Part shown: positions 24,591 to 34,198 of the stretch, one piece after another
How the letters are laid out: every line of letters starts with the position of its first letter
Position numbering within the stretch: position 1 is the stretch's first letter
Origin: Escherichia phage C6
DNA: 64,000 nt
Strand: one strand, 5' to 3'
Sequence record: MW679410.1
Made by a program: the position numbers and the translations under genes
Notes under the pieces: generated by a model
What the model was told of the DNA's origin: nothing
What the model saw: only the letters and a program-made list of their open reading frames with translations
Databases searched by the model: none

Positions 24591-24620
24591 ATAGTACCAC
24601 ATCCTTGTGGTGTTGTAAAC
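24591..24620 (-). promoter_or_regulatory. Early-type promoter for the 96-aa ORF
   Basis: Minus strand GTTTACA, 18-nt spacer containing the inverted repeat CCACAAGGATGTGG, TACTAT; leader ...CATGAGGAGAACATTATG. Confidence 0.55.
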
Positions 24621-26743
24621 TACATTTTGAATTTATTTGGCAGAGCAGAGATATCCAAAGATGCAGCAAGGATTTCCATAGCTTCGTTGCTTTCAGAAAC
24701 GGATTCATTAACCAAGAATTGACTGAATCCATGCATCAGGCGAACTTCACCAGTTTCCATCAAATGGTCGCCATCGTAAACAGATTCGCTGAGCTCTGAA
24801 GGAGGTGTTACTGTAGCTTCCATAAGATATTTGTGAGATACCCTATCATTCATAGCAAAAGCCGCTACTTTATCAACCTTCAACAATAATCCACGCGGAA
24901 GGATAATTTCTGCTTCTTCGGCATATTCTGTAAGGTCACCAGGAGCGATAACTTTAACTGCTTCAGCACCTCGAATAACCATACCAATTTCAGCAATTCT
25001 ATCCGCAGGACCTTCAGGTGCAATTGGATTACCAAACTCGTCTTCTTCCCATTCTACCTCTTCGTCATCGACTTCACCCACATCAGATGAACTACCACTA
25101 GCCAATTTAAACAACTCATCAGCGGAGGATAAAGAACCTTCACCACCAACAAAAACGGCTTGGTTGTCGAGGGCCATATAATTTTTACCAAATTCACCAA
25201 AGATGTTAGGCTTTAATGAGGCTGACACAAAGTTCTTAAAGTAAAATGTTTTGTTATCGATATTATGACGCAGAATTTTGTATGGCAAATCCTGACCACG
25301 ATACAAAATAGTACCCTTAGGAAGTTTAATACCCTTAGTAAATGCTGAGTCTAAATCCTTAATCAATTTAATAGCCGTTGTATTGTTTTCGGATTCAGGT
25401 TTACCTAAAAGGAACAAGTTCATAGGAGCATATTCAGCTGCGCAATATTCAATAATAGCATTGCTTTCGTCTTTGGTTAGGTCCTTAGGTTTAATGAGCT
25501 CACCTGAATAAGCATATGCATCACTAATAGAATCGTTAATTAGTTTATAAACGGCTTCCATAGCGAAAGCAATTCGAGAGGCCTTTTCTGAAGGGGAGCC
25601 TTTAAAACGGGTACTCAGGTTATTAACAATTTTCTTAATAATATCCAGACTATTGGTTGTATTGATTTGCGAAAGACCGCTTAAAAGTCTATCGACTTCT
25701 GTATTAAAAAATGCCATATTATTAGAGTAAATTTCAAACCCTTGTTTATCTCTATTAGCATAATTTAGTTTAAATTTACTATCAGTCATTAAAGCGTGCG
25801 TGAGAGCAATGGTGTATCTAAAGTTGGCAAGGTCCTCGCTCTTAGATTTAAACTGAGAAGCCTGGCGCATTTTGGTAATAGCACCTTTTTTAAAGTTCTG
25901 ACTAATCTGTTCAATACCTTCATTCTCAGGGCCTTCAGCCGTGTGAACCGGTACAGAAGCTTCAAACTCGTTATAAACCTGCAATTCTTTAGGGGACAAA
26001 GTTTCAGGCTCAGCAGTAGAATACTGCGCGGCTGCTGCCATACGACGCGAAATCTTAGTACGAGTAATGACAGCCTTATCAGTACGTTTTTCTTCAACTT
26101 GTGCAATAGATGCCGCTACGGCTTCGACCTTACTTACGGCCTGGCCGGTTTTCTTAGAAACATACACTTCGCCAACTTTAGACTCAACTTTAGTATAAAG
26201 ATCGGCATTAATTTCAGGCATACCCTTGATATCTTCAATATTAGCCCCGCGACGTACTAAAAGAACGTAGGTATGTTTTCCGCTGAATTGGAACATGTCG
26301 TCAACAACTTTAAACTTACCACCGGTACGGGCCATAGCCAAACGAGCTAATACGCGCTGAACGGTAGGGCCTTTACCTTTCATTTTCTTAGTAGGGAAAC
26401 GGAATAAAACCGCGTCCATTTTAAGTTTGTTTATTTGTTCATATATGGTATCGAAAATGGTGTTCAGTGTACCGAGTGGATCGGTACCCAAACCACCCTT
26501 GAGTTCTGCCGGAGCGCCTTTAGCAGATAAACTCATTAAGATAACATGGACGTACTTATCGCCCGCCTTAACCATCTTAATAGCGTCGCCTTCAGACGCA
26601 TAAGATACCATACGTGCTACTAAATTGTCATTACCAGGAGCATGTACCGCAAAAATCTGCGGTACGCCTGAGCCAGGTTTAAGATTTGTTACTGGGTAAT
26701 TTTTTTTATCACTTTTATCAAAAACTTCGTTTAAATTTTCCAT
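24620..26743 (-). CDS. alt: Alt-type ADP-ribosyltransferase paralog A (third in the array)
   Basis: 707 aa; N-terminal MENLNEVFD (LxE-type motif) and conserved approx 230-aa N-domain shared with the two upstream paralogs; ART-like R/S-x-S/E-x-E elements (LYRGQ, FVSASL, EEAEIILPRG); divergent central module. Confidence 0.85.
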   Translation of the reverse strand: MENLNEVFDKSDKKNYPVTNLKPGSGVPQIFAVHAPGNDNLVARMVSYASEGDAIKMVKAGDKYVHVILMSLSAKGAPAELKGGLGTDPLGTLNTIFDTIYEQINKLKMDAVLFRFPTKKMKGKGPTVQRVLARLAMARTGGKFKVVDDMFQFSGKHTYVLLVRRGANIEDIKGMPEINADLYTKVESKVGEVYVSKKTGQAVSKVEAVAASIAQVEEKRTDKAVITRTKISRRMAAAAQYSTAEPETLSPKELQVYNEFEASVPVHTAEGPENEGIEQISQNFKKGAITKMRQASQFKSKSEDLANFRYTIALTHALMTDSKFKLNYANRDKQGFEIYSNNMAFFNTEVDRLLSGLSQINTTNSLDIIKKIVNNLSTRFKGSPSEKASRIAFAMEAVYKLINDSISDAYAYSGELIKPKDLTKDESNAIIEYCAAEYAPMNLFLLGKPESENNTTAIKLIKDLDSAFTKGIKLPKGTILYRGQDLPYKILRHNIDNKTFYFKNFVSASLKPNIFGEFGKNYMALDNQAVFVGGEGSLSSADELFKLASGSSSDVGEVDDEEVEWEEDEFGNPIAPEGPADRIAEIGMVIRGAEAVKVIAPGDLTEYAEEAEIILPRGLLLKVDKVAAFAMNDRVSHKYLMEATVTPPSELSESVYDGDHLMETGEVRLMHGFSQFLVNESVSESNEAMEILAASLDISALPNKFKM

Positions 26744-26746
26744 TAT

Positions 26747-28792
26747 TTACCCTTGGGTGAATTTTTCTGGGATTTCGTCAAAATTAATACATGAAGCCAA
26801 AAGAGGCATTATATCCACCTTGGTCGATTTGACAAATGAATCAAAAGACACAGGGTTGTCGGTCTCTGTTTCTACGCCTTGGTAAACAACCAATTCGCCG
26901 GTTTCCATCAATGCATCACCATCATAGATAACCGCATTTTCTGCTAGTTGGTCTGTGGTCTGGATATCAGCTTCCAATAATTTGGTGTTGTAGTTTCCTT
27001 TATATGAGGCATCTGTAATTTTAGTAATCTTAACAGTAGTTCCACGTGGAAGAATAACCTCTTGTTCTGTTGGAGAACCTGACAATTCACCGGGCACAAT
27101 TACGTTAATAGAGTCTGCACCGGAAATTTTCCAACCGATGTTCATCATTGTATTTTCGGAACTCGTCAGCATACTTGGAAGAACAATTTCATTATCGCCT
27201 TGGAAAGATGTCCCAACGCGATAGTCCTGATGAACTGCGGCCATTGCGACGTTTGATACCCAGCCGCCAAAGATAATCGGCTTAAGGGACGTTGATACAT
27301 AGTTCCTGAAATAAAACAATTTTGAGTGTTTGATTTTATCAAAAGTGTTAACATTTAAATATTGACCACGCCAAAGTGTAATATCAGGTGGCAATTTATG
27401 GCCAATTTCAAATGCCGCATCCATATCATTAATTACTTCAATTACGCGATAACTATCAATAAATTCTGCATCCTCTTCATAATAATTACCCAACAAATAA
27501 TTATTAACATCGGTATAATATTGGCCGCAATAAGAAGAAATAGCCTCACGCTGCTCATACTCAAATCGATTATCGCTATAACTGGCTGTAAAATGCATAA
27601 CACTTTCTGACGCTTCATTAGCAAAATCGGTAACAGCAGCACTTATACGTTGAGCATACTCTTGTTCCCAAAGCTCTGCCGCATATTCGGCCGCATCCAT
27701 ATTAGGAGGAGCCTCATTCATTTTTCTTTCGATAAATGCAGCTTTGCGAAGGTTAAGAACCTCTGCACATGATTCGGCAAAAATCTGCATCTGCTTCATA
27801 CTGCCGACAGGAGCACGTTTAAGTTCACGATGCATACGGTTAAAAATTGGGTCAGAGTCTTCGACTCGAATTTCTTCTTTCCAAACACCGTTTGCTCGCA
27901 TAGCCATATCTGCCGCGCGCATACGCTCCATAGTATTCGTTTCAGAAGGTTGAATAAAAATTTCTAGTTCTTCATAATCGTCGATAAGTTCCGCTGTTGC
28001 TGGGGCACTAAATTTTGATGCCTCTGCATCAATCTCATTCCAACCTTCCGGAACTTCATCTCGAGGAGAATACTGGGCTGCGGCTACAGCACGCCTAGAA
28101 ATCTTGGTAGTAGTAATAACGGCCTTATCCGTACGTTTTTCTTCGACTGCCGCTATACTAGCAGATAGTGCTTCTATTTTGGTTACCGATTGGCCTGTTT
28201 TCTTGGATACATAAACCTCACCAACTTTAGACTCAACCTTAGTGTAAAGGTCTGCATCAATTTCAGGCATACCTTTTATGTCCTCAATATTAGCTTGTTT
28301 ACGAACCAGTAAAACGTATGTATGTTTGCCTGTAAATTGATACATATCATCGACAACTTTAAACTTGCCGCCAGTACGAGCCATCGCCAAACGTGCCAAT
28401 ACACGTTGAACAGTAGGACCCTTACCTTTCATTTTCTTGGTAGGGAACCGGAAAAGAACTGCATCCATACGAAGAGCTTTAACTTGTTCGTATACAGTAT
28501 CGAAAATGGTGTTCAGTGTACCAAGTGGGTCAGAACCTAACCCGCCTTTCAACTCGGCTGGGGTACCCTTAGCAGACAAACTCATCAAAATAACATGAAC
28601 ATATTTGTCGCCCGGCTTAACCATTTTAATAGCGTCTCCTTGAGACGCATAAGATACCATACGAGCAACCAGATTATCATTACCTGGTGCTTGGATAGAG
28701 AAAATCTGTGGAATACCGGAACCCGGTTTAAGATTTGTTACTGGATAGTTTTTAGCGGAATCACTATCAAAAACCTCATTTAAATTTTCCAT
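26747..28792 (-). CDS. alt: Alt-type ADP-ribosyltransferase paralog B (second in the array)
   Basis: 681 aa; N-terminal 230 aa nearly identical to paralog A; LWRGQ, YVSTSL, EQEVILPRG motifs; unique central module; C-terminus ...PLLASCINFDEIPEKFTQG. Confidence 0.85.
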   Translation of the reverse strand: MENLNEVFDSDSAKNYPVTNLKPGSGIPQIFSIQAPGNDNLVARMVSYASQGDAIKMVKPGDKYVHVILMSLSAKGTPAELKGGLGSDPLGTLNTIFDTVYEQVKALRMDAVLFRFPTKKMKGKGPTVQRVLARLAMARTGGKFKVVDDMYQFTGKHTYVLLVRKQANIEDIKGMPEIDADLYTKVESKVGEVYVSKKTGQSVTKIEALSASIAAVEEKRTDKAVITTTKISRRAVAAAQYSPRDEVPEGWNEIDAEASKFSAPATAELIDDYEELEIFIQPSETNTMERMRAADMAMRANGVWKEEIRVEDSDPIFNRMHRELKRAPVGSMKQMQIFAESCAEVLNLRKAAFIERKMNEAPPNMDAAEYAAELWEQEYAQRISAAVTDFANEASESVMHFTASYSDNRFEYEQREAISSYCGQYYTDVNNYLLGNYYEEDAEFIDSYRVIEVINDMDAAFEIGHKLPPDITLWRGQYLNVNTFDKIKHSKLFYFRNYVSTSLKPIIFGGWVSNVAMAAVHQDYRVGTSFQGDNEIVLPSMLTSSENTMMNIGWKISGADSINVIVPGELSGSPTEQEVILPRGTTVKITKITDASYKGNYNTKLLEADIQTTDQLAENAVIYDGDALMETGELVVYQGVETETDNPVSFDSFVKSTKVDIMPLLASCINFDEIPEKFTQG

Positions 28793-28795
28793 TAT

Positions 28796-30880
28796 TTACC
28801 CTTGGATGAATTTTTCTGGGATGTCATAGAGGTCTATGCATGAAGCCAAAAGAGGCAGTACATCAAACCGTGTAGATTTAACAAATGAATCAAAAGATAC
28901 AGGGCTTTCGGAAGTATCGAAGTCATCTTGATATACGACCAACTCGCCGGTTTCCATTAGTACGTCACCATCATATACCACAGATTCTTGAAGCTCATCT
29001 GTTGTCATAACTTCAGCTTGGATGAGTTTTGTATTACTAGATGTTGTTCCATCATTATTAGAAGCATCTGTTATTTTATTAACTTTGACCATTAATCCAC
29101 GCGGTAGAATAACTTCGGCTTCAGTTGCTATTCCGAGATTTCCTGGATATACTACATTAACTTTATGAGCCCCATCAATAGCCCATCCTATTTGAACTTT
29201 AACGTAATCAGGATTTTCCTTATACGCCCTTATTTCATTAGGGTTAATAGTTATTCCTTCTTCATTTTTATCGACTGTCAATTCATTACGAACTTCCGGT
29301 TCTAAAAGACCGATACCAGCGTGTGTAACACCAAATCGTCCAAAAATGATAGGGGTTAAAGAAGTAGATACAAAATTTCTGAAATAGAACACTTTATTTT
29401 TAACTAGTGCTTCGTATATAGGAGCAGTCATACTCTGTGCACGATAAACTGTAATGCCTTCTGGTATACGGTCACCATTTTCAAAAGCAGAATCCAAATT
29501 ATTAACTGCAGATTCGATATCTTTTTCGCTCATAACCTCATAGTTCTGAGGATTATAACGTCCTAAAAGAAGATTATTTATGTCTGTATATCCTGAACCA
29601 CAATATTCTCTGATGCCGCGCTTTTGTGATGGGGTATATTTAGAGCCCTCACGAGCAATAGTAATATCGACCATAATACCACCACCCACACCAGCAAAAC
29701 TATATACACGTTTTTTAATGAACTTGGTCTTGGCGGCTTTCCACTTCGCATCGGTCAATTCATTCCAGAGGTCGTCAGGTTGGCCTTTACGAGTTTTGTT
29801 ATGCCGGGCCAGCCATTCACCTTTGTATTCTTCGAAAACGGTATTAATAGCAGAGGCATATTTTTCTAGAGCTTTAACAGATGTCAAAGGTTCGTTTTTG
29901 ATGGCCGTAAGAATTTTATCTTTAATTTTCTCTTGGATTTCACCTATACCGTGAAGAGGAAACATTTTATAATCGTAATGCAATTCTTCAGCAGTGCCTT
30001 CAGCCACTATATTAGCAACCTTATTTTTAGCCGCAGGAGAATTGTTATTAGTAACCATTTCCTGAGCCTCAGGGATTAATGGAACTGTTGCTGGTTTATT
30101 AAAATCCGCTGCAGTAGCTTCATATTTCTTAAACAATTCACTTTCATTACGATAAGATTCCAATGATTGGCTTGCTGCAATAGCACGTCGCGAAATCTTA
30201 GTCTTGGTTATAACCATTTTATCAGTGCGACGTTCTTCAACCTTAGCAATACTGCCGGCAATAGCAGTTTCTTTAGTAACCTGCACACCTTCTTTTTTGG
30301 AAATATAAACTTCACCGACATCAGAATCTACCTTAGTGTATAATTCGGAATTAATTCCTGGCATACCTTTGATATCTTCGATATCAGCTTGTTTACGAAC
30401 TACTAAGATGTAAGTATGTTTACCGGTAAATTGGTACATAGCCGGAACTACTTTAAAACGTCCACCAGTTTTCTGTGCTACCAAACGTTGGATAATCCGT
30501 TGGACAATAGGTCCTTGTCCTTTCATTTTCTTGGTAGGAAAACGGAACATCACGGCATCCATACGAAGCTTTTTAACTTGGTCATAAACCACATCAAAAA
30601 TAGTATTAATCGCATCTACGGGAGTAGGGCCAAGGCCACCCTTAAGTTCGGCCGGAGTACCTTTAGCTGAAAGGCTCATAAGGATAACGTGGGCATATTT
30701 ATCACCCATTTTAACTTGTTTAATAGCATCACCTTCAGAAGCGTAGGATACCATACGCGCGACCAATTGGGATTCAACGTCTCCAATTTTCCAAATCTGG
30801 GGTACTTTAAGTTTAGGGTTCAAGTTTACTGTAGGCAGAGTGCCTTCGGACTCAAACACTTCATTTAATTGTTCGGTCAT
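28796..30880 (-). CDS. alt: Alt-type ADP-ribosyltransferase paralog C (first in the array)
   Basis: 694 aa; same architecture (MTEQLNEVFE..., VYRAQS, FVSTSL, EAEVILPRG, C-terminal ...PLLASCIDLYDIPEKFIQG); N-domain more diverged than A/B. Confidence 0.85.
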   Translation of the reverse strand: MTEQLNEVFESEGTLPTVNLNPKLKVPQIWKIGDVESQLVARMVSYASEGDAIKQVKMGDKYAHVILMSLSAKGTPAELKGGLGPTPVDAINTIFDVVYDQVKKLRMDAVMFRFPTKKMKGQGPIVQRIIQRLVAQKTGGRFKVVPAMYQFTGKHTYILVVRKQADIEDIKGMPGINSELYTKVDSDVGEVYISKKEGVQVTKETAIAGSIAKVEERRTDKMVITKTKISRRAIAASQSLESYRNESELFKKYEATAADFNKPATVPLIPEAQEMVTNNNSPAAKNKVANIVAEGTAEELHYDYKMFPLHGIGEIQEKIKDKILTAIKNEPLTSVKALEKYASAINTVFEEYKGEWLARHNKTRKGQPDDLWNELTDAKWKAAKTKFIKKRVYSFAGVGGGIMVDITIAREGSKYTPSQKRGIREYCGSGYTDINNLLLGRYNPQNYEVMSEKDIESAVNNLDSAFENGDRIPEGITVYRAQSMTAPIYEALVKNKVFYFRNFVSTSLTPIIFGRFGVTHAGIGLLEPEVRNELTVDKNEEGITINPNEIRAYKENPDYVKVQIGWAIDGAHKVNVVYPGNLGIATEAEVILPRGLMVKVNKITDASNNDGTTSSNTKLIQAEVMTTDELQESVVYDGDVLMETGELVVYQDDFDTSESPVSFDSFVKSTRFDVLPLLASCIDLYDIPEKFIQG

Positions 30881-30902: not shown

Positions 30903-30932
30903 TATTTATGCCAGAAAAGGCCCGAAGGCCTT
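30903..30932 (-). promoter_or_regulatory. Hairpin (AAGGCC-CGAA-GGCCTT) plus variant late-promoter-like box upstream of the alt array
   Basis: Palindromic GC hairpin followed on the minus strand by UUUUCUGG, then cATAAATA (one mismatch to TATAAATA) about 20 nt before the first alt ATG. Confidence 0.4.
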
Positions 30933-31113
30933 AAAGTGGTAGCAACGTACGGTATACTTCAAATTTAGGACCCTTTTCATAGCGGTCGAAATTATCTTTA
31001 AAATCGGCGAACGCGATTTCATTTTCAAATTCAAGGACAATTTGGGACACCGCAGTGGAGACATCGCCACCTTCTTTATATCCAATAACCACGGTTTCTA
31101 AATAAACTTTCAT
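30931..31113 (-). CDS. Hypothetical small protein, 60 aa
   Basis: ORF directly downstream of ligase; start placed at the Met 1 nt after the ligase stop (TAA-T-ATG); the ORF-track start 31155 would overlap ligase by 41 nt; hairpin at 30917-30932 follows. Confidence 0.45.
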   Translation of the reverse strand: MKVYLETVVIGYKEGGDVSTAVSQIVLEFENEIAFADFKDNFDRYEKGPKFEVYRTLLPL

Positions 31114-31114
31114 A

Positions 31115-32638
31115 TTATAACCCAGTTTGAGACCAATCACCGAATACATCTTCAAATGTATCAGCTTCTGTTTTATCGAAACGCCAACCTTTAATAATTG
31201 GAAGGAAAATACCTACGGTATCAGTACGTCCTTTAGAATGAACCCAACCATTACATTCACAGTCGGCAATACGGCCAATCAATTTACCTTCACGAGCTTG
31301 TTTCATAAGAAGTTCACGGTCTAAATCAGGACGGTCTTCCAATGGAATCAATACCTTTTTACCTGATTTATCTTTCTTATGGGTAGTATCTTTAAAGCCT
31401 GAACCACAGTCACTTGTAATTCGACGACAACGTGATACCAACTCGACACCACCTAGTTTGTTAGGGTCCTTCGAGTGTTCATAATAACCTACCACTTCTA
31501 AAGCAATATCAATTACTTCTTTGAACTTGATAAGATTCTTAGAACGGCGGTTTTCCCAGTAGGAGTCCATGTTCTTAAGGATAATACCTTCCAGGCCCTG
31601 GTCGACATATTTCTTATAAACGACTTTAGCTTCTTCAAGATTATTAACCCACTGGTTTTCGATAGCTTCAACACGCGTTGTACCATGCAATACGACATTA
31701 TGAGCAACCATAAGTTCTAAGGCTGTAAAGCGTACATCATACTTATCGCCTTTAATTTTACCTTCGGAATATACGACATCCAATGGGACATAATCCCACG
31801 CCTGTAATACCATACCAGCGGCTTCGGTCGGAGTAATAGTTCCTTGAAGAGCCTTGTTAGCCAAGCCGTTTGACGTGGAACGATCGGCGACAGTTTGGAA
31901 TTCCTTAGCCTTACTTAATTCAGGAAGTTCCTCATCAAACATACTAAACAAATCATTAGATGCTTTAGGTTCTACCTTAGGAGTATGGTAAACTAATTCG
32001 CCGTCAATCATAACACCATTAGGATGGCGTTGTCGAGCTTCTTCGGTCATGGTCATTAATTCAGCAGCCAAAAGATTAAGCCCTTGATATTCGTTACCAC
32101 CACGAGTAAGGAATGTCACACCATCGTTACGAACTTCAGCAAAACAACGAGCGCCATCAGCTTTTAATTGGGCAAACGCAGGCCATTTAATATTTTTCTT
32201 AATCAAAGCTTCATCATAAGAACTAGCCAACATCTGCGGTTGTTCAGGGATTAAACCTTTCCAAACCTTGTTAGCAATAGAAATTGATGCACCACATTCA
32301 AGGTCACGCATCATTACACGACGTAATACCTCGGCATCTTGTCCCTTAGCATCAGCAATGATTTGAGCCAGTTCTTCAATAGCTGCATTACCCGTAATCT
32401 TACGTGTGGCTAATGTGAATTCAGCGAAATCAAGAAGGTCTTCAAGAGTAATCATACCAAAGGATTGAGACGTAAATCCAGGTTCCGGCCACTTTTTAAT
32501 GCCATAGTTCAAACGACGAGTATAAGCCATACGATAAACACGTTTCAGAAGCTCATTGTCCTTTTCACGAGCAATAATAGCTTCTTTAGCTTTAGTAGAA
32601 TCAATAGCAGCAATTTCGTTTAAAATATCTAAAATCAT
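31115..32638 (-). CDS. 30: ATP-dependent DNA ligase gp30
   Basis: 507 aa; MILDILNEIAAIDSTKAKEAIIAREKDNELLKRVY...QLKADGARCFAEV (adenylation KxDG motif)...LEGIILKN matches T4 DNA ligase. Confidence 0.95.
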   Translation of the reverse strand: MILDILNEIAAIDSTKAKEAIIAREKDNELLKRVYRMAYTRRLNYGIKKWPEPGFTSQSFGMITLEDLLDFAEFTLATRKITGNAAIEELAQIIADAKGQDAEVLRRVMMRDLECGASISIANKVWKGLIPEQPQMLASSYDEALIKKNIKWPAFAQLKADGARCFAEVRNDGVTFLTRGGNEYQGLNLLAAELMTMTEEARQRHPNGVMIDGELVYHTPKVEPKASNDLFSMFDEELPELSKAKEFQTVADRSTSNGLANKALQGTITPTEAAGMVLQAWDYVPLDVVYSEGKIKGDKYDVRFTALELMVAHNVVLHGTTRVEAIENQWVNNLEEAKVVYKKYVDQGLEGIILKNMDSYWENRRSKNLIKFKEVIDIALEVVGYYEHSKDPNKLGGVELVSRCRRITSDCGSGFKDTTHKKDKSGKKVLIPLEDRPDLDRELLMKQAREGKLIGRIADCECNGWVHSKGRTDTVGIFLPIIKGWRFDKTEADTFEDVFGDWSQTGL

Positions 32639-32898
32639 TTTACCGTCCTTACAGTTTGGGTACTTCTATTATAAGCCACTTCATCTAAAAGCTCATTTAA
32701 AGTTTTGTGATACGATATAATACGCTTATCTTTAATATCATATTCAGTAACATACATAAATCCACGCCGAACACATTGGATAAAGATATCTTCATCTTTG
32801 GCTTGGAAATATACAGGGTTCAATCGAAGGAATTGTCTAACGTTTCCATAATCATGGGATTTAGGGGTCCCATCAGTAATAGTATGAACTACAAACAT
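32635..32898 (-). CDS. Hypothetical early protein (30.1 position)
   Basis: ORF upstream of ligase; start placed at the Met at 32898 (TAA-T-ATG after the preceding gene); ORF-track start 32931 is the alternative. Confidence 0.5.
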   Translation of the reverse strand: MFVVHTITDGTPKSHDYGNVRQFLRLNPVYFQAKDEDIFIQCVRRGFMYVTEYDIKDKRIISYHKTLNELLDEVAYNRSTQTVRTVK

Positions 32899-32899
32899 A

Positions 32900-33538
32900 T
32901 TAACCTCGAGCAATCCATTCAACTGCGGCATTATTACGAAGGGATTCGATTGCTGCGATATCGTCCCATGAATTAACCTTTACGGCCAAATTAGGTTTAA
33001 AGTCGCGTTCACCACGAGCTAACCAATAAACTTGGATATCCATGAGAACATTAGATGCTGCATCGCAATGATGAGCCAAATCATCAACATAAAACTTAAT
33101 ACGTTTACCGTACGTATTTTTAGCTCTTATGAAGAGGTCTTCTTTTGATTCTGAATGACCGCACATCAGAATCTCCTTGAATGCGCCAGGGAACAAAGCA
33201 TTCAAATTGAATTGTCTATTCAGCAGGGCATCAATTGAGTCGCCTAGCGCAGTCACGGCTACAAAATCGAAGTCTTTTTTGAGCTTGTTGATATGTTTTA
33301 GTGCGTCCATGTAAGGAGACAGATAACGAATAAAATCTGACTGATTATATTTCTCGATTAAACGAGCGCCCAATTCATTATCACAATTAAACAGCTCGCC
33401 TGGAGATAAGAACCGTTCGTCCTGAATCATATTCAAAATATGTTCTAAAGGCAAATTATATTTCTGTGCGAAATAAGGCAAGCCGGACTGCCAACTTAAA
33501 CATACTCCATCGATATCTGTTAAGATAACTGGTTTCAT
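32900..33538 (-). CDS. HAD-superfamily hydrolase, putative phosphatase or nucleotidase
   Basis: 212 aa; N-terminal VILTDIDGV (HAD motif I DxDG) and a DD pair near the C-terminal third. Confidence 0.7.
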   Translation of the reverse strand: MKPVILTDIDGVCLSWQSGLPYFAQKYNLPLEHILNMIQDERFLSPGELFNCDNELGARLIEKYNQSDFIRYLSPYMDALKHINKLKKDFDFVAVTALGDSIDALLNRQFNLNALFPGAFKEILMCGHSESKEDLFIRAKNTYGKRIKFYVDDLAHHCDAASNVLMDIQVYWLARGERDFKPNLAVKVNSWDDIAAIESLRNNAAVEWIARG

Positions 33539-34002
33539 AATAAATCTCTCAATTTGTTTAGGATGTCGATAAACTCTTTTTCAGTTAGTATTGTATCACA
33601 TTCTGTAAGGTGGCTTGCCATCGAATGCTTTAAAACTTTACCTTTTGTGGATTGTAACGCATCGCGGAATCCTTTGTTCTGGAGCGCTGCTTCAAAATAC
33701 GCACTTTCGTAAAGCTCTTTCCACGCTTCGGAATATCTTGAAAACGGAGTTCCAAGCCAGAACAACGTGCCACGGTCCTGAGCTCTAGCATAAGCTCGAC
33801 CAGCTTTTTGCGCGTCTAACCCGGACATCCCAAATATACGTCTTTGCTGTTCAACATTTTTCACCTTACATCCTTGGAGGAATCCTTCGAGTCCACCAAA
33901 TTGGATACCATCCATAACGAAAGGCCATTTAGCAAAGTTACTTAATGCACATGATGGCCATGGGAAGTTGCTTCTAATTTCTAATTCAGACATCTTTGAC
34001 AC
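33535..34002 (-). CDS. NADAR/YbiA-like domain protein
   Basis: 155 aa; LSNFAKWPFVMDGIQFGGLEGFLQGCK parallels the E. coli YbiA core FSNFAAWPIKVDGKTWPTSEHYFQAQK (recalled from memory). Confidence 0.7.
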   Translation of the reverse strand: MSKMSELEIRSNFPWPSCALSNFAKWPFVMDGIQFGGLEGFLQGCKVKNVEQQRRIFGMSGLDAQKAGRAYARAQDRGTLFWLGTPFSRYSEAWKELYESAYFEAALQNKGFRDALQSTKGKVLKHSMASHLTECDTILTEKEFIDILNKLRDLL

Positions 34003-34198
34003 TTATAATTTCAACATCAGCCCAATGACCATAACCAGGTAGACGGTCTTTAATAGATAATCCACCGTCAAATTTCAGCATTTTAATTGTTTTAGTATAT
34101 GGTTCAATATTTCGGGCCCATGGACTCACGTCTGTCACACGATAAGTAACTTCGACCATTTCTGTGCCCAAAATTTTCTGAATCAGTTTCTTAAACAT
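33986..34198 (-). CDS. Hypothetical early protein, 70 aa
   Basis: Tightly packed ORF in the 30.x cluster; no recognisable motif. Confidence 0.5.
   Translation of the reverse strand: MFKKLIQKILGTEMVEVTYRVTDVSPWARNIEPYTKTIKMLKFDGGLSIKDRLPGYGHWADVEIISVKDV

What the first reader, a model, noticed from the sequence alone, without database searches (positions are those of the whole stretch)
32900..34002. HAD-family hydrolase and NADAR/YbiA-like gene pair next to DNA ligase and the ADP-ribosyltransferase array
The 155-aa protein at 33535-34002 has the NADAR/YbiA core LSNFAKWPFVMDGIQFGGLEGFLQGCK, which parallels E. coli YbiA. The adjacent 212-aa protein starts with the HAD motif VILTDIDGV. NADAR-domain proteins are known to hydrolyse ADP-ribose adducts on guanine, including as antitoxins of DarT-type DNA ADP-ribosyltransferases. 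A phage-encoded NADAR about 2 kb from three ADP-ribosyltransferase genes could either tune the phage's own ADP-ribosylation or counter host DarT-like defence. I cannot confirm from memory whether the T4 gene at this position has already been assigned to this family.
Basis: partly seen in the sequence, partly recalled or inferred. Interest (0 to 1): 0.6.

Follow-up and report, generated by a model that had tools for sequence, protein, structure and literature searches.

The report
Known phage anti-DarT NADAR plus phosphatase
These are the T4 genes 30.3 and 30.2 in a JS98-like coliphage: 30.3 is the already characterised AdfN enzyme that strips defensive ADP-ribose from phage DNA, and 30.2 is an uncharacterised HAD phosphatase that merely sits beside it, so the finding is correct but not new.

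Summary
Both ORFs exist on the minus strand with the quoted motifs, about 2 kb from three Alt-type ADP-ribosyltransferase genes. The window comes from a JS98-like T-even phage, and the genes are orthologues of T4 30.3 and 30.2.

The 30.3 protein is 152 aa from the ATG at 33993 and 86% identical to T4 AdfN. It keeps the catalytic Glu36 and Lys43, the phage-type His123 and the C-terminal helix. Its predicted structure matches only YbiA/NADAR structures in the PDB. T4 AdfN has already been published as a NADAR guanine-ADP-ribose DNA glycohydrolase that defeats the host DarTG1 defence (Nat Commun 2025; Toxins 2024). The family was placed in the NADAR superfamily in 2012.

The two genes are not a conserved module. 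Of 83 loci with 30.3, 60 have no 30.2 within 6 kb. By contrast, 30.2 sits directly upstream of DNA ligase in all 67 T4-like loci examined.

Verdict: already known, low interest.

The parts
33535..33993 (-). adfN / gene 30.3 orthologue: 152-aa NADAR-superfamily (phage gp30.3 subfamily) DNA guanine-ADP-ribose glycohydrolase. Catalytic codons: E36 at 33888-33886, K43 at 33867-33865, H123 at 33627-33625. The C-terminal helix (aa 138-151) is intact.
   Evidence: PF08010 E=5e-65. 86% identity to T4 gp30.3/AdfN over 152 aa with no gaps. E36, K43 and H123 are invariant across 39 homologues. AF2 pLDDT 95.5. Foldseek finds only YbiA/NADAR structures. hhalign against YbiA gives 93.8%.
33994..34002 (-).
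   Evidence: T4 30.3 and the homologues start at the ATG that corresponds to 33993. This ATG gives the same 8-nt overlap with 30.4 as in T4.
32900..33538 (-). Gene 30.2 orthologue: 212-aa HAD-superfamily phosphatase with a C1 cap, NT5C-like. Motif I is D8-x-D10-G-V (D8 at 33517-33515, D10 at 33511-33509). Motif II is T96, motif III K132, motif IV D152-D153. This is the short form, lacking the roughly 65-aa C-terminal extension of T4 gp30.2.
32635..32931 (-). Gene 30.1 orthologue (DUF3045), lying between 30.2 and ligase. The likely start is the internal ATG at 32898.
   Evidence: PF11243 E=2.4e-20, with the match beginning at aa 12. T4 30.1 is 89 aa.
31115..32638 (-). Gene 30, ATP-dependent DNA ligase: the conserved downstream neighbour of 30.2.
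   Evidence: PF01068 E=2.4e-23. Ligase lies downstream of 30.2 in all 67 T4-like loci.
24620..30880 (-). Three tandem Alt-like ADP-ribosyltransferase paralogues (24620-26743, 26747-28792, 28796-30880). Context only.
   Evidence: PF03496 at E=2.5e-17, 6.6e-21 and 4.9e-36.

Best explanation
The window comes from a JS98-like T-even coliphage, and the region holds orthologues of T4 genes 30.3 and 30.2.

Gene 30.3 (33535-33993, minus strand) encodes AdfN. AdfN is an orphan DarG1-like NADAR enzyme. After a host DarT1 toxin ADP-ribosylates guanine bases in phage DNA, AdfN hydrolyses the N-glycosidic link and releases ADP-ribose, so replication can continue in hosts carrying DarTG1. The sequence shows that this copy is intact and has all catalytic residues. 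The enzymatic activity and the anti-DarTG1 phenotype were shown for the T4 protein, which is 86% identical, and are inferred here by orthology.

Gene 30.2 (32900-33538) encodes a Mg-dependent HAD phosphatase of the C1-capped, NT5C-like kind. Fold and motifs are shown here. Its most likely substrate is a (deoxy)nucleoside monophosphate or a similar small phosphoester, but that is inference.

The two genes are neighbours through T-even synteny and do not form a functional module. Gene 30.2 travels with DNA ligase, and 30.3 moves independently.
For: Identity of the phage and genes: about 94% nucleotide identity to JS98 and NC-G, whose records label these genes 30.1-30.5. The T4 gene order alt-30-30.1-30.2-30.3-30.4 is reproduced.

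AdfN:
- 86% identity to T4 gp30.3, with the segment GGLEGFLQGCK identical.
- E36, K43 and H123 are invariant in the family.
- The model has pLDDT 95.5 with the C-terminal helix present.
- Foldseek finds 2b3w, 8bau and 8bat only.
- hhalign against YbiA gives 93.8%.

Published work on the T4 orthologue:
- T4 30.3 was renamed adfN. It is necessary and sufficient against DarTG1 in T-even infections. E36A and K43A mutations and a C-terminal truncation all impair it (PMC11825919).
- It hydrolyses guanine-ADP-ribose in vitro but not thymidine-ADP-ribose (PMC11125620) and not cytidine-ADP-ribose (PMC12945103).
- Transposon insertions in adfN are lost under DarTG1 (bioRxiv 10.1101/2025.11.20.689424).

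HAD phosphatase: motifs, fold and the NT5C bridge.

Not a module:
- 60 of 83 loci with 30.3 have no 30.2 within 6 kb.
- 30.3 is adjacent in only 22 of 79 loci centred on 30.2, while ligase is downstream in 67 of 79.
- The same genome can hold the two genes about 55 kb apart (L047 and L115).
Against: - No assay was done on this allele. It has 21 substitutions relative to T4 AdfN, and none of them falls in an invariant column.
- Pfam PF08719 does not match the window protein directly.
- No Pfam or NCBIfam HAD model reaches threshold on the window gp30.2. NT5C scores only 13.4 bits against a cut-off of 24.8.
- The IMG/VR locus samples are the best-scoring 80 and are not phylogenetically balanced.
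Confidence: 0.88

Rival explanations
1. The two genes form a functional module. gp30.2 would be the unidentified T-even-specific factor that AdfN(T4) needs, since AdfN(T4) works only during T-even infection. It might process a reaction product or target AdfN to replicating DNA.
For: - AdfN(T4) cannot rescue uninfected E. coli from DarT1, and it barely rescues T5 or Bas25. The authors suggest a requirement for another T-even protein (PMC11825919).
- 30.3 and 30.2 overlap by ATGA in this window and in T4.
- They are directly adjacent in 16 T-even-proximal loci.
Against: - Adjacency is lost in most of the family, and both genes persist when separated.
- Every gene in the 30.x cluster overlaps or abuts its neighbour, so the ATGA overlap is not specific to this pair.
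- A genome-wide T4 transposon screen under DarTG1 describes adfN as the hit and never mentions 30.2. This is absence of mention only; I did not inspect the data tables.
- Guanine de-ADP-ribosylation has no chemical need for a phosphatase, and purified AdfN works alone in vitro.
Confidence: 0.06
2. The NADAR tunes or reverses the phage's own ADP-ribosylation by the three neighbouring Alt-type enzymes, which act on host proteins or RNA.
For: The gene lies about 2 kb from three Alt paralogues. Iyer et al. 2022 noted that NADARs in T4-like phages are early genes co-located with ADP-ribosyltransferases (PMC9503650).
Against: - Characterised NADARs, including the T4 protein, cleave base-linked (guanine) ADP-ribose on nucleic acids. 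From established knowledge, Alt/ModA/ModB modify arginine residues on proteins.
- In most gp30.3-family loci no Alt or 30.2 cluster is nearby. For example, in Aeromonas phage 31 and Vibrio phage D485 the gene sits in different contexts.
- The DarTG1 phenotype explains why the gene is retained.
Confidence: 0.04
3. gp30.2 is a DNA-end 3'-phosphatase that prepares nicks for the adjacent DNA ligase, and not a small-molecule nucleotidase.
For: 30.2 lies immediately upstream of ligase in all 67 T4-like loci. From established knowledge, HAD phosphatase domains do perform DNA 3'-end healing in T4 Pnkp.
Against: - The model has a full C1 helical cap over the active site (aa 12-90). From established knowledge of HAD enzymes, that cap is typical of small-molecule substrates, whereas Pnkp-type phosphatases are capless.
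- The closest sequence family is NT5C.
- Distant relatives lack ligase and instead neighbour GMP reductase or a dCMP-deaminase-like gene.
- T-even phages already encode PseT.
Confidence: 0.1
4. The NADAR mainly degrades soluble ADP-ribose-derived immune signals or riboflavin-pathway intermediates (YbiA-like N-glycosidase activity), and not DNA adducts.
For: Iyer et al. 2022 proposed soluble ADP-ribose derivatives as the main targets of phage NADARs. There is a faint TIGR02464 riboflavin N-glycosidase match at E=0.083.
Against: - The last-strand residue is His, not the Glu that defines the YbiA family.
- The DNA activity and the DarTG1 phenotype of the 86%-identical T4 protein have been shown directly.
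- A second, soluble substrate is not excluded.
Confidence: 0.05

Closest known systems
T4 AdfN (gp30.3), anti-DarT factor NADAR (Johannesman et al., Nat Commun 2025, PMC11825919; Toxins 2024, PMC11125620)
   Same: Orthologue. It is 86% identical over all 152 residues with no gaps, and it occupies the same genomic position (30.4-30.3-30.2-30.1-30). The catalytic E36 and K43, the H123 and the C-terminal helix are identical, and the fold matches are the same.
   Different: There are 21 substitutions outside the invariant columns. The host phage is a JS98-like Dhakavirus-type phage, not T4. Nothing suggests a different function.
DarG1 NADAR antitoxins of DarTG1 systems (E. coli C7; Geobacter lovleyi, PDB 8bat; Schuller et al., Mol Cell 2023, PMC11543638)
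   Same: The same YbiA/NADAR core fold, the same Glu and Lys that position ADP-ribose, and the same reaction, hydrolysis of guanine-N2-ADP-ribose.
   Different: - No DarT gene is adjacent, so this is an orphan.
- The last-strand residue is His, not Asp.
- It lacks the N-terminal extension of DarG1 and consists of the core domain only.
- The T4 protein cannot replace DarG1 in uninfected cells.
E. coli YbiA (PDB 2b3w), riboflavin-intermediate N-glycosidase, Pfam PF08719 / TIGR02464
   Same: It is the best structural match (Foldseek E=2.3e-4, TM 0.68) and the only PDB sequence-profile hit. The SNFA..P....DG.....E.F.Q..K core is shared.
   Different: About 17-25% identity. YbiA has Glu where the phage protein has H123. 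PF08719 does not score the window protein directly.
NT5C-family 5'(3')-deoxyribonucleotidases (cdN/mdN, PDB 2jao, 4mum, 6g2n; 3bwv), Pfam PF06941, compared with gp30.2
   Same: HAD Rossmannoid core with a C1 helical cap. The motif I context DxDGVL..(F/W)..GL and the DD motif IV are shared. It is the top sequence-profile PDB hit, and relatives of gp30.2 pass the NT5C threshold.
   Different: - The window protein itself scores below the NT5C cut-off (13.4 against 24.8 bits).
- Identity is about 15-18%.
- The substrate is untested.
- Family-specific invariant residues (W16, S18, Y64-N65, R108, N111) define a separate phage clade.

Membership tests
NADAR superfamily, phage gp30.3/AdfN subfamily | Match to the subfamily profile (Pfam PF08010 Phage_30_3) | tested here: met
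   E=5.1e-65, 217.9 bits against a cut-off of 36, covering profile positions 2-138 of 138.
NADAR superfamily, phage gp30.3/AdfN subfamily | Direct match to the generic NADAR profile (Pfam PF08719) | tested here: not met
   No hit even at E<=10. However, 7 of 39 family members do hit PF08719, best 1.5e-7, and hhalign of the family profile against YbiA gives 93.8% probability, E=1.8e-7. This is a sensitivity limit of a single-sequence scan and is not evidence against homology.
NADAR superfamily, phage gp30.3/AdfN subfamily | YbiA fold: helical core flanked by small beta-hairpins | tested here: met
   The AF2 model has pLDDT 95.5 and pTM 0.90. The only Foldseek PDB matches with probability >=0.97 are 2b3w YbiA, 8bau PnNADAR-ADPr and 8bat G. 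lovleyi NADAR; the next best has probability 0.02.
NADAR superfamily, phage gp30.3/AdfN subfamily | Catalytic Glu and Lys that position the distal ribose and phosphate (PnNADAR E43/K50; E. coli C7 E88/K95; T4 E36/K43) | tested here: met
   E36 and K43 lie in a segment identical to T4 and are invariant in 39 homologues. Their roles are taken from PMC11543638 and PMC11825919.
NADAR superfamily, phage gp30.3/AdfN subfamily | Histidine at the last-strand position, which distinguishes phage NADARs from YbiA (Glu) and DarG1 (Asp) | tested here: met
   H123 in VLKHS is invariant in the family alignment and lies just after strand E120-122 of the model. The criterion comes from PMC11125620 and PMC11543638.
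NADAR superfamily, phage gp30.3/AdfN subfamily | Intact C-terminal helix, whose loss in RB69 reduces activity | tested here: met
   The protein is full length and ends ...EKEFIDILNKLRDLL. The model has a helix at residues 138-151. The criterion comes from PMC11825919.
NADAR superfamily, phage gp30.3/AdfN subfamily | Guanine-ADP-ribose DNA glycohydrolase activity and anti-DarTG1 phenotype | not testable with these tools
   Shown only for the T4 orthologue, which is 86% identical.
DarTG1 toxin-antitoxin system | NADAR encoded next to a DarT1 ADP-ribosyltransferase toxin gene | tested here: not met
   The neighbours are 30.4, 30.5, 30.6, 30.2, 30.1 and ligase. None of them matches a DarT or any defence model. 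The gene is therefore an orphan antitoxin-like gene and not a TA system.
HAD superfamily phosphatase (gp30.2) | Motif I DxDx[TV], with nucleophile Asp and Asp+2 general acid/base | tested here: met
   D8-I-D10-G11-V12. D8, D10 and G11 are invariant in 39 homologues, and D8 and D10 are invariant in 46 sequences down to 21% identity. The Asp+2 argues for a phosphotransferase and against a dehalogenase (established HAD knowledge).
HAD superfamily phosphatase (gp30.2) | Motif II Thr/Ser, motif III Lys, motif IV acidic pair | tested here: met
   T96 is conserved in at least 90% of sequences (Ser in one). K132 is invariant. D152-D153 are invariant, and D153 and K132 remain invariant in the distant set.
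HAD superfamily phosphatase (gp30.2) | Rossmannoid HAD core with a cap domain | tested here: met
HAD superfamily phosphatase (gp30.2) | Curated HAD-family profile above threshold on this protein | tested here: not met
   There is no Pfam or NCBIfam hit above the cut-off. The best is NT5C at E=0.074, 13.4 bits against 24.8. This shows divergence. It does not contradict the fold and motif evidence.
NT5C 5'(3')-deoxyribonucleotidase family (gp30.2) | Membership by profile (PF06941) and the nucleotidase-type motif I context | tested here: inconclusive
   - The window protein is below threshold.
- Relatives linked to the gp30.2 profile at 99% hhalign probability pass threshold (32.7 and 37.7 bits).
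- 11 of 45 distant representatives hit NT5C, best 4.2e-10.
- The PDB profile search finds cdN 2jao first, at E=0.029.
NT5C 5'(3')-deoxyribonucleotidase family (gp30.2) | dNMP phosphatase activity | not testable with these tools
   No paper in the searched library mentions gp30.2, and none describes a function for gene 30.2.

The most novel reading that the evidence does not exclude
gp30.2, an uncharacterised NT5C-like HAD phosphatase found across Straboviridae, has a specific unrecognised role. One possibility is that it is the missing T-even factor that lets AdfN work only in T-even infections. The other, better supported by its invariant linkage to gene 30, is that it works with DNA ligase or the nucleotide pool, for example by clearing a nucleotide by-product or a defence-related nucleotide.
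Probability: 0.08. Interest if true: 0.5.

Novelty: already known. Interest (0 to 1): 0.15.

Why it matters
AdfN shows that phages can capture an antitoxin-type enzyme and use it to erase a host defence mark from their own DNA. That result is already published for T4, so this window adds only another intact orthologue.

Three modest points come out of this check:
- The generic Pfam NADAR model misses this subfamily, and nearly all of the roughly 1,500 GenBank phage records still label the gene 'hypothetical protein'. Annotation pipelines should map PF08010 to AdfN/NADAR.
- The neighbouring gp30.2 is a confident but unstudied HAD phosphatase. Its conserved partner is DNA ligase, not AdfN.
- Natural adfN loss-of-function alleles occur in close relatives, which fits fluctuating selection from DarTG1.

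Tried and rejected
- Single-sequence searches of both proteins against PDB sequences gave only chance hits. Profiles were needed.
- PADLOC gave no hits for either protein.
- The promoter and terminator scan found nothing above shuffle expectation inside 32900-34002. The genes sit in a tightly packed co-directional cluster.
I rebuilt the alignment without it.
- I considered reading the ATGA overlap as evidence of coupling and rejected it, because all 30.x genes overlap or abut their neighbours.
- I considered the T4-annotated out-of-frame internal gene 30.3' and judged it probably not a gene. The ORF at 33630-33791 is only 58% identical to the T4 one, while the main frame is 86% identical over the whole protein, and the first 22 codons of the T4 ORF are not kept.
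- Literature searches for gp30.2 found nothing.

Full report
**Observation.** ORF 33535-34002 is 155 aa from a GTG start. ORF 32900-33538 is 212 aa and starts MKPVILTDIDGV. The quoted NADAR-like string is present exactly. The two ORFs overlap by ATGA. Downstream lie a DUF3045 gene (32635-32931) and an ATP-dependent DNA ligase (31115-32638). Three tandem ORFs of about 700 aa at 24620-30880 all match the ADP-ribosyltransferase family PF03496.

The region is about 94% identical in DNA to coliphages JS98, JS10 and NC-G, whose records label these genes 30.1 to 30.5. The gene order matches T4 alt-30-30.1-30.2-30.3-30.4. The window is therefore a JS98-like T-even phage, and the two genes are the orthologues of T4 30.3 and 30.2. 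One correction is needed. The 30.3 gene almost certainly starts at the ATG at 33993, giving 152 aa as in T4 and the same 8-nt overlap with 30.4.

**The NADAR gene.** The protein matches Pfam PF08010 (Phage_30_3) at E=5e-65. It does not match the generic NADAR model PF08719 even at E<=10, and it gives only a faint TIGR02464 signal. Several results establish the link to NADAR:
- 7 of 39 diverse family members do hit PF08719.
- A profile of the family finds E. coli YbiA as its only PDB sequence hit.
- That profile aligns to YbiA with 93.8% hhalign probability.
- A high-confidence model (pLDDT 95.5) has only three credible PDB matches: YbiA, the Phytophthora NADAR bound to ADP-ribose, and the Geobacter lovleyi DarG1-type NADAR.

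The protein is 86% identical to T4 gp30.3 with no gaps. Glu36 and Lys43 sit in an identical segment. His123 occupies the last-strand position that distinguishes phage NADARs. All three residues are invariant in the family alignment, and the C-terminal helix is intact.

**What is already known.** De Souza and Aravind placed gp30.3 proteins in the NADAR superfamily as the histidine-bearing phage branch, as cited in PMC11125620 and PMC11543638. Later work built on this:
- Schuller et al. 2023 showed that NADARs reverse guanine ADP-ribosylation by DarT1 and defined the catalytic Glu and Lys and the last-strand residue.
- Toxins 2024 showed that purified T4 gp30.3 removes guanine-ADP-ribose but not thymidine-ADP-ribose.
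- Johannesman et al. (Nat Commun 2025) mapped DarTG1 resistance of T-even phages to 30.3 and renamed it adfN. E36A and K43A mutations and a C-terminal truncation like the RB69 allele all impair it. It removes ADP-ribose from DNA in vitro.
- A T4 transposon screen independently found adfN to be conditionally essential under DarTG1.
- A 2026 paper showed that the T4 enzyme is specific for guanine and does not act on cytidine adducts.
- Iyer et al. 2022 had already remarked that NADARs in T4-like phages are early genes co-located with ADP-ribosyltransferases.

I found no support for the first, tuning the phage's own ADP-ribosylation.

**The HAD gene.** gp30.2 has no curated family hit above threshold. 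The best is NT5C at E=0.074. The evidence that it is a HAD phosphatase is nevertheless strong:
- In 39 homologues down to 38% identity, D8, D10, G11 (motif I), K132 (motif III) and D152-D153 (motif IV) are invariant, and T96 (motif II) is nearly so.
- In 46 sequences down to 21% identity, D8, D10, R108, K132 and D153 remain invariant.
- The model (pLDDT 94.7) matches 143 PDB chains at E<=1e-3, all HAD enzymes.

The closest subfamily is NT5C, the 5'(3')-deoxyribonucleotidases:
- The family profile finds mouse cdN (2jao) first among PDB sequences, aligned through DxDGVL..(W/F)..GL.
- Distant relatives that align to the gp30.2 profile at 99% probability pass the NT5C gathering threshold.
- 11 of 45 distant representative clusters hit NT5C.
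- Some of those relatives neighbour a GMP reductase or a dCMP-deaminase-like gene.

My best guess is therefore a (deoxy)nucleoside monophosphate phosphatase, but the substrate is inferred, not shown. The window protein is the short form. T4 and many homologues carry a variable C-terminal extension that ends in a conserved GIEYLxxxPT motif. No paper in the searched library mentions gp30.2.

**Is it a gene pair?** Both genes are near-core in Straboviridae. By tblastn, 30.3 occurs in 1,510 phage records and 30.2 in 1,447, with matching host distributions. Their linkage, however, is local.
- Among 83 loci containing a gp30.3-family gene, 30.2 is directly downstream in 16, lies 0.7-1.2 kb away in 7, and is absent within 6 kb in 60.
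- Among 79 loci centred on 30.2, DNA ligase is downstream in 67 (all of the T4-like ones), while 30.3 is adjacent in only 22.
- Some genomes keep both genes about 55 kb apart (L047 and L115).
- In Aeromonas phage 31 and Vibrio phage D485, 30.3 sits in other contexts.
- The ATGA overlap is not special, because every gene in the 30.x cluster overlaps or abuts its neighbour.

The pair therefore reflects T-even synteny. The conserved partner of 30.2 is the ligase gene.

**The open point.** AdfN(T4) works fully only during T-even infection, and the factor it needs is unknown. gp30.2 is an obvious candidate by position. Against this, the synteny data are unfavourable, AdfN is active alone in vitro, and the DarTG1 transposon screen text does not mention 30.2. 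I give this reading about 6-8%.

**Verdict.** The only uncharacterised element is gp30.2, a new member of a known enzyme kind. Interest is low.

Noticed in passing
L087:5520-6010 (IMGVR_UViG_2974741249, aligned to window 33530-34010): A close relative, whose gp30.2 is 100% identical to the window's, carries a 99-nt in-frame deletion in adfN. The deletion removes about 33 codons (roughly residues 9-42), including the LSNF motif and the catalytic Glu36. Other truncated or frame-switched adfN products exist in public data: P0132 (109 aa), P0133 (91 aa) and P0139. adfN therefore seems to be lost repeatedly in nature, as in RB69. The window copy is intact.
   Followed up: partly
window 31115-33538; loci L086-L152: Gene 30.2 lies immediately upstream of DNA ligase gene 30, with or without 30.1 between them, in all 67 T4-like loci examined. 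This linkage is far more conserved than its adjacency to 30.3. I know of no functional reason for a linkage between a HAD phosphatase and ligase.
   Followed up: partly
window 32900-33100 (C-terminus of gp30.2), compared with L001:5475-5700: The window gp30.2 (212 aa) lacks the roughly 65-residue C-terminal extension found in T4 gp30.2 (278 aa) and in many homologues of 260-310 aa. That extension is variable but ends in a conserved GIEYLxxxPT motif, which may be an interaction peptide.
   Followed up: no
window 33630-33791 (-): There is an out-of-frame internal ORF corresponding to the T4-annotated gene 30.3'. It is only 58% identical to the T4 version, while the main frame is 86% identical over the whole protein. 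It also lacks the first 22 codons of the T4 ORF. It is probably not a real gene.
   Followed up: partly
window 24620-30880 (-): There are three full-length tandem Alt-like ADP-ribosyltransferase paralogues of 707, 681 and 694 aa. T4 has one alt gene plus the short remnants alt.-1 and alt.-2. A 74-aa 'phage blade' protein (PF24647, the alt.1 position) sits at 30931-31155 between alt and ligase.
   Followed up: no
public phage records: Almost all of the roughly 1,500 GenBank phage records that encode gp30.3 homologues still annotate the gene as 'hypothetical protein', despite the AdfN publications of 2024-2025. A few records call gp30.2 a '5' nucleotidase', a 'HAD-superfamily hydrolase' or, wrongly, 'DNA ligase'.
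   Followed up: no
L157:6759-7622, L154:5615-5926, L153:6570-9602: Distant NT5C-like relatives of gp30.2 in non-T-even viral contigs sit beside a GMP reductase/IMPDH-family gene, a small dCMP-deaminase-like gene, or a glycosyltransferase plus an asparagine-synthase-like gene. This points to a nucleotide-metabolism context.
   Followed up: partly
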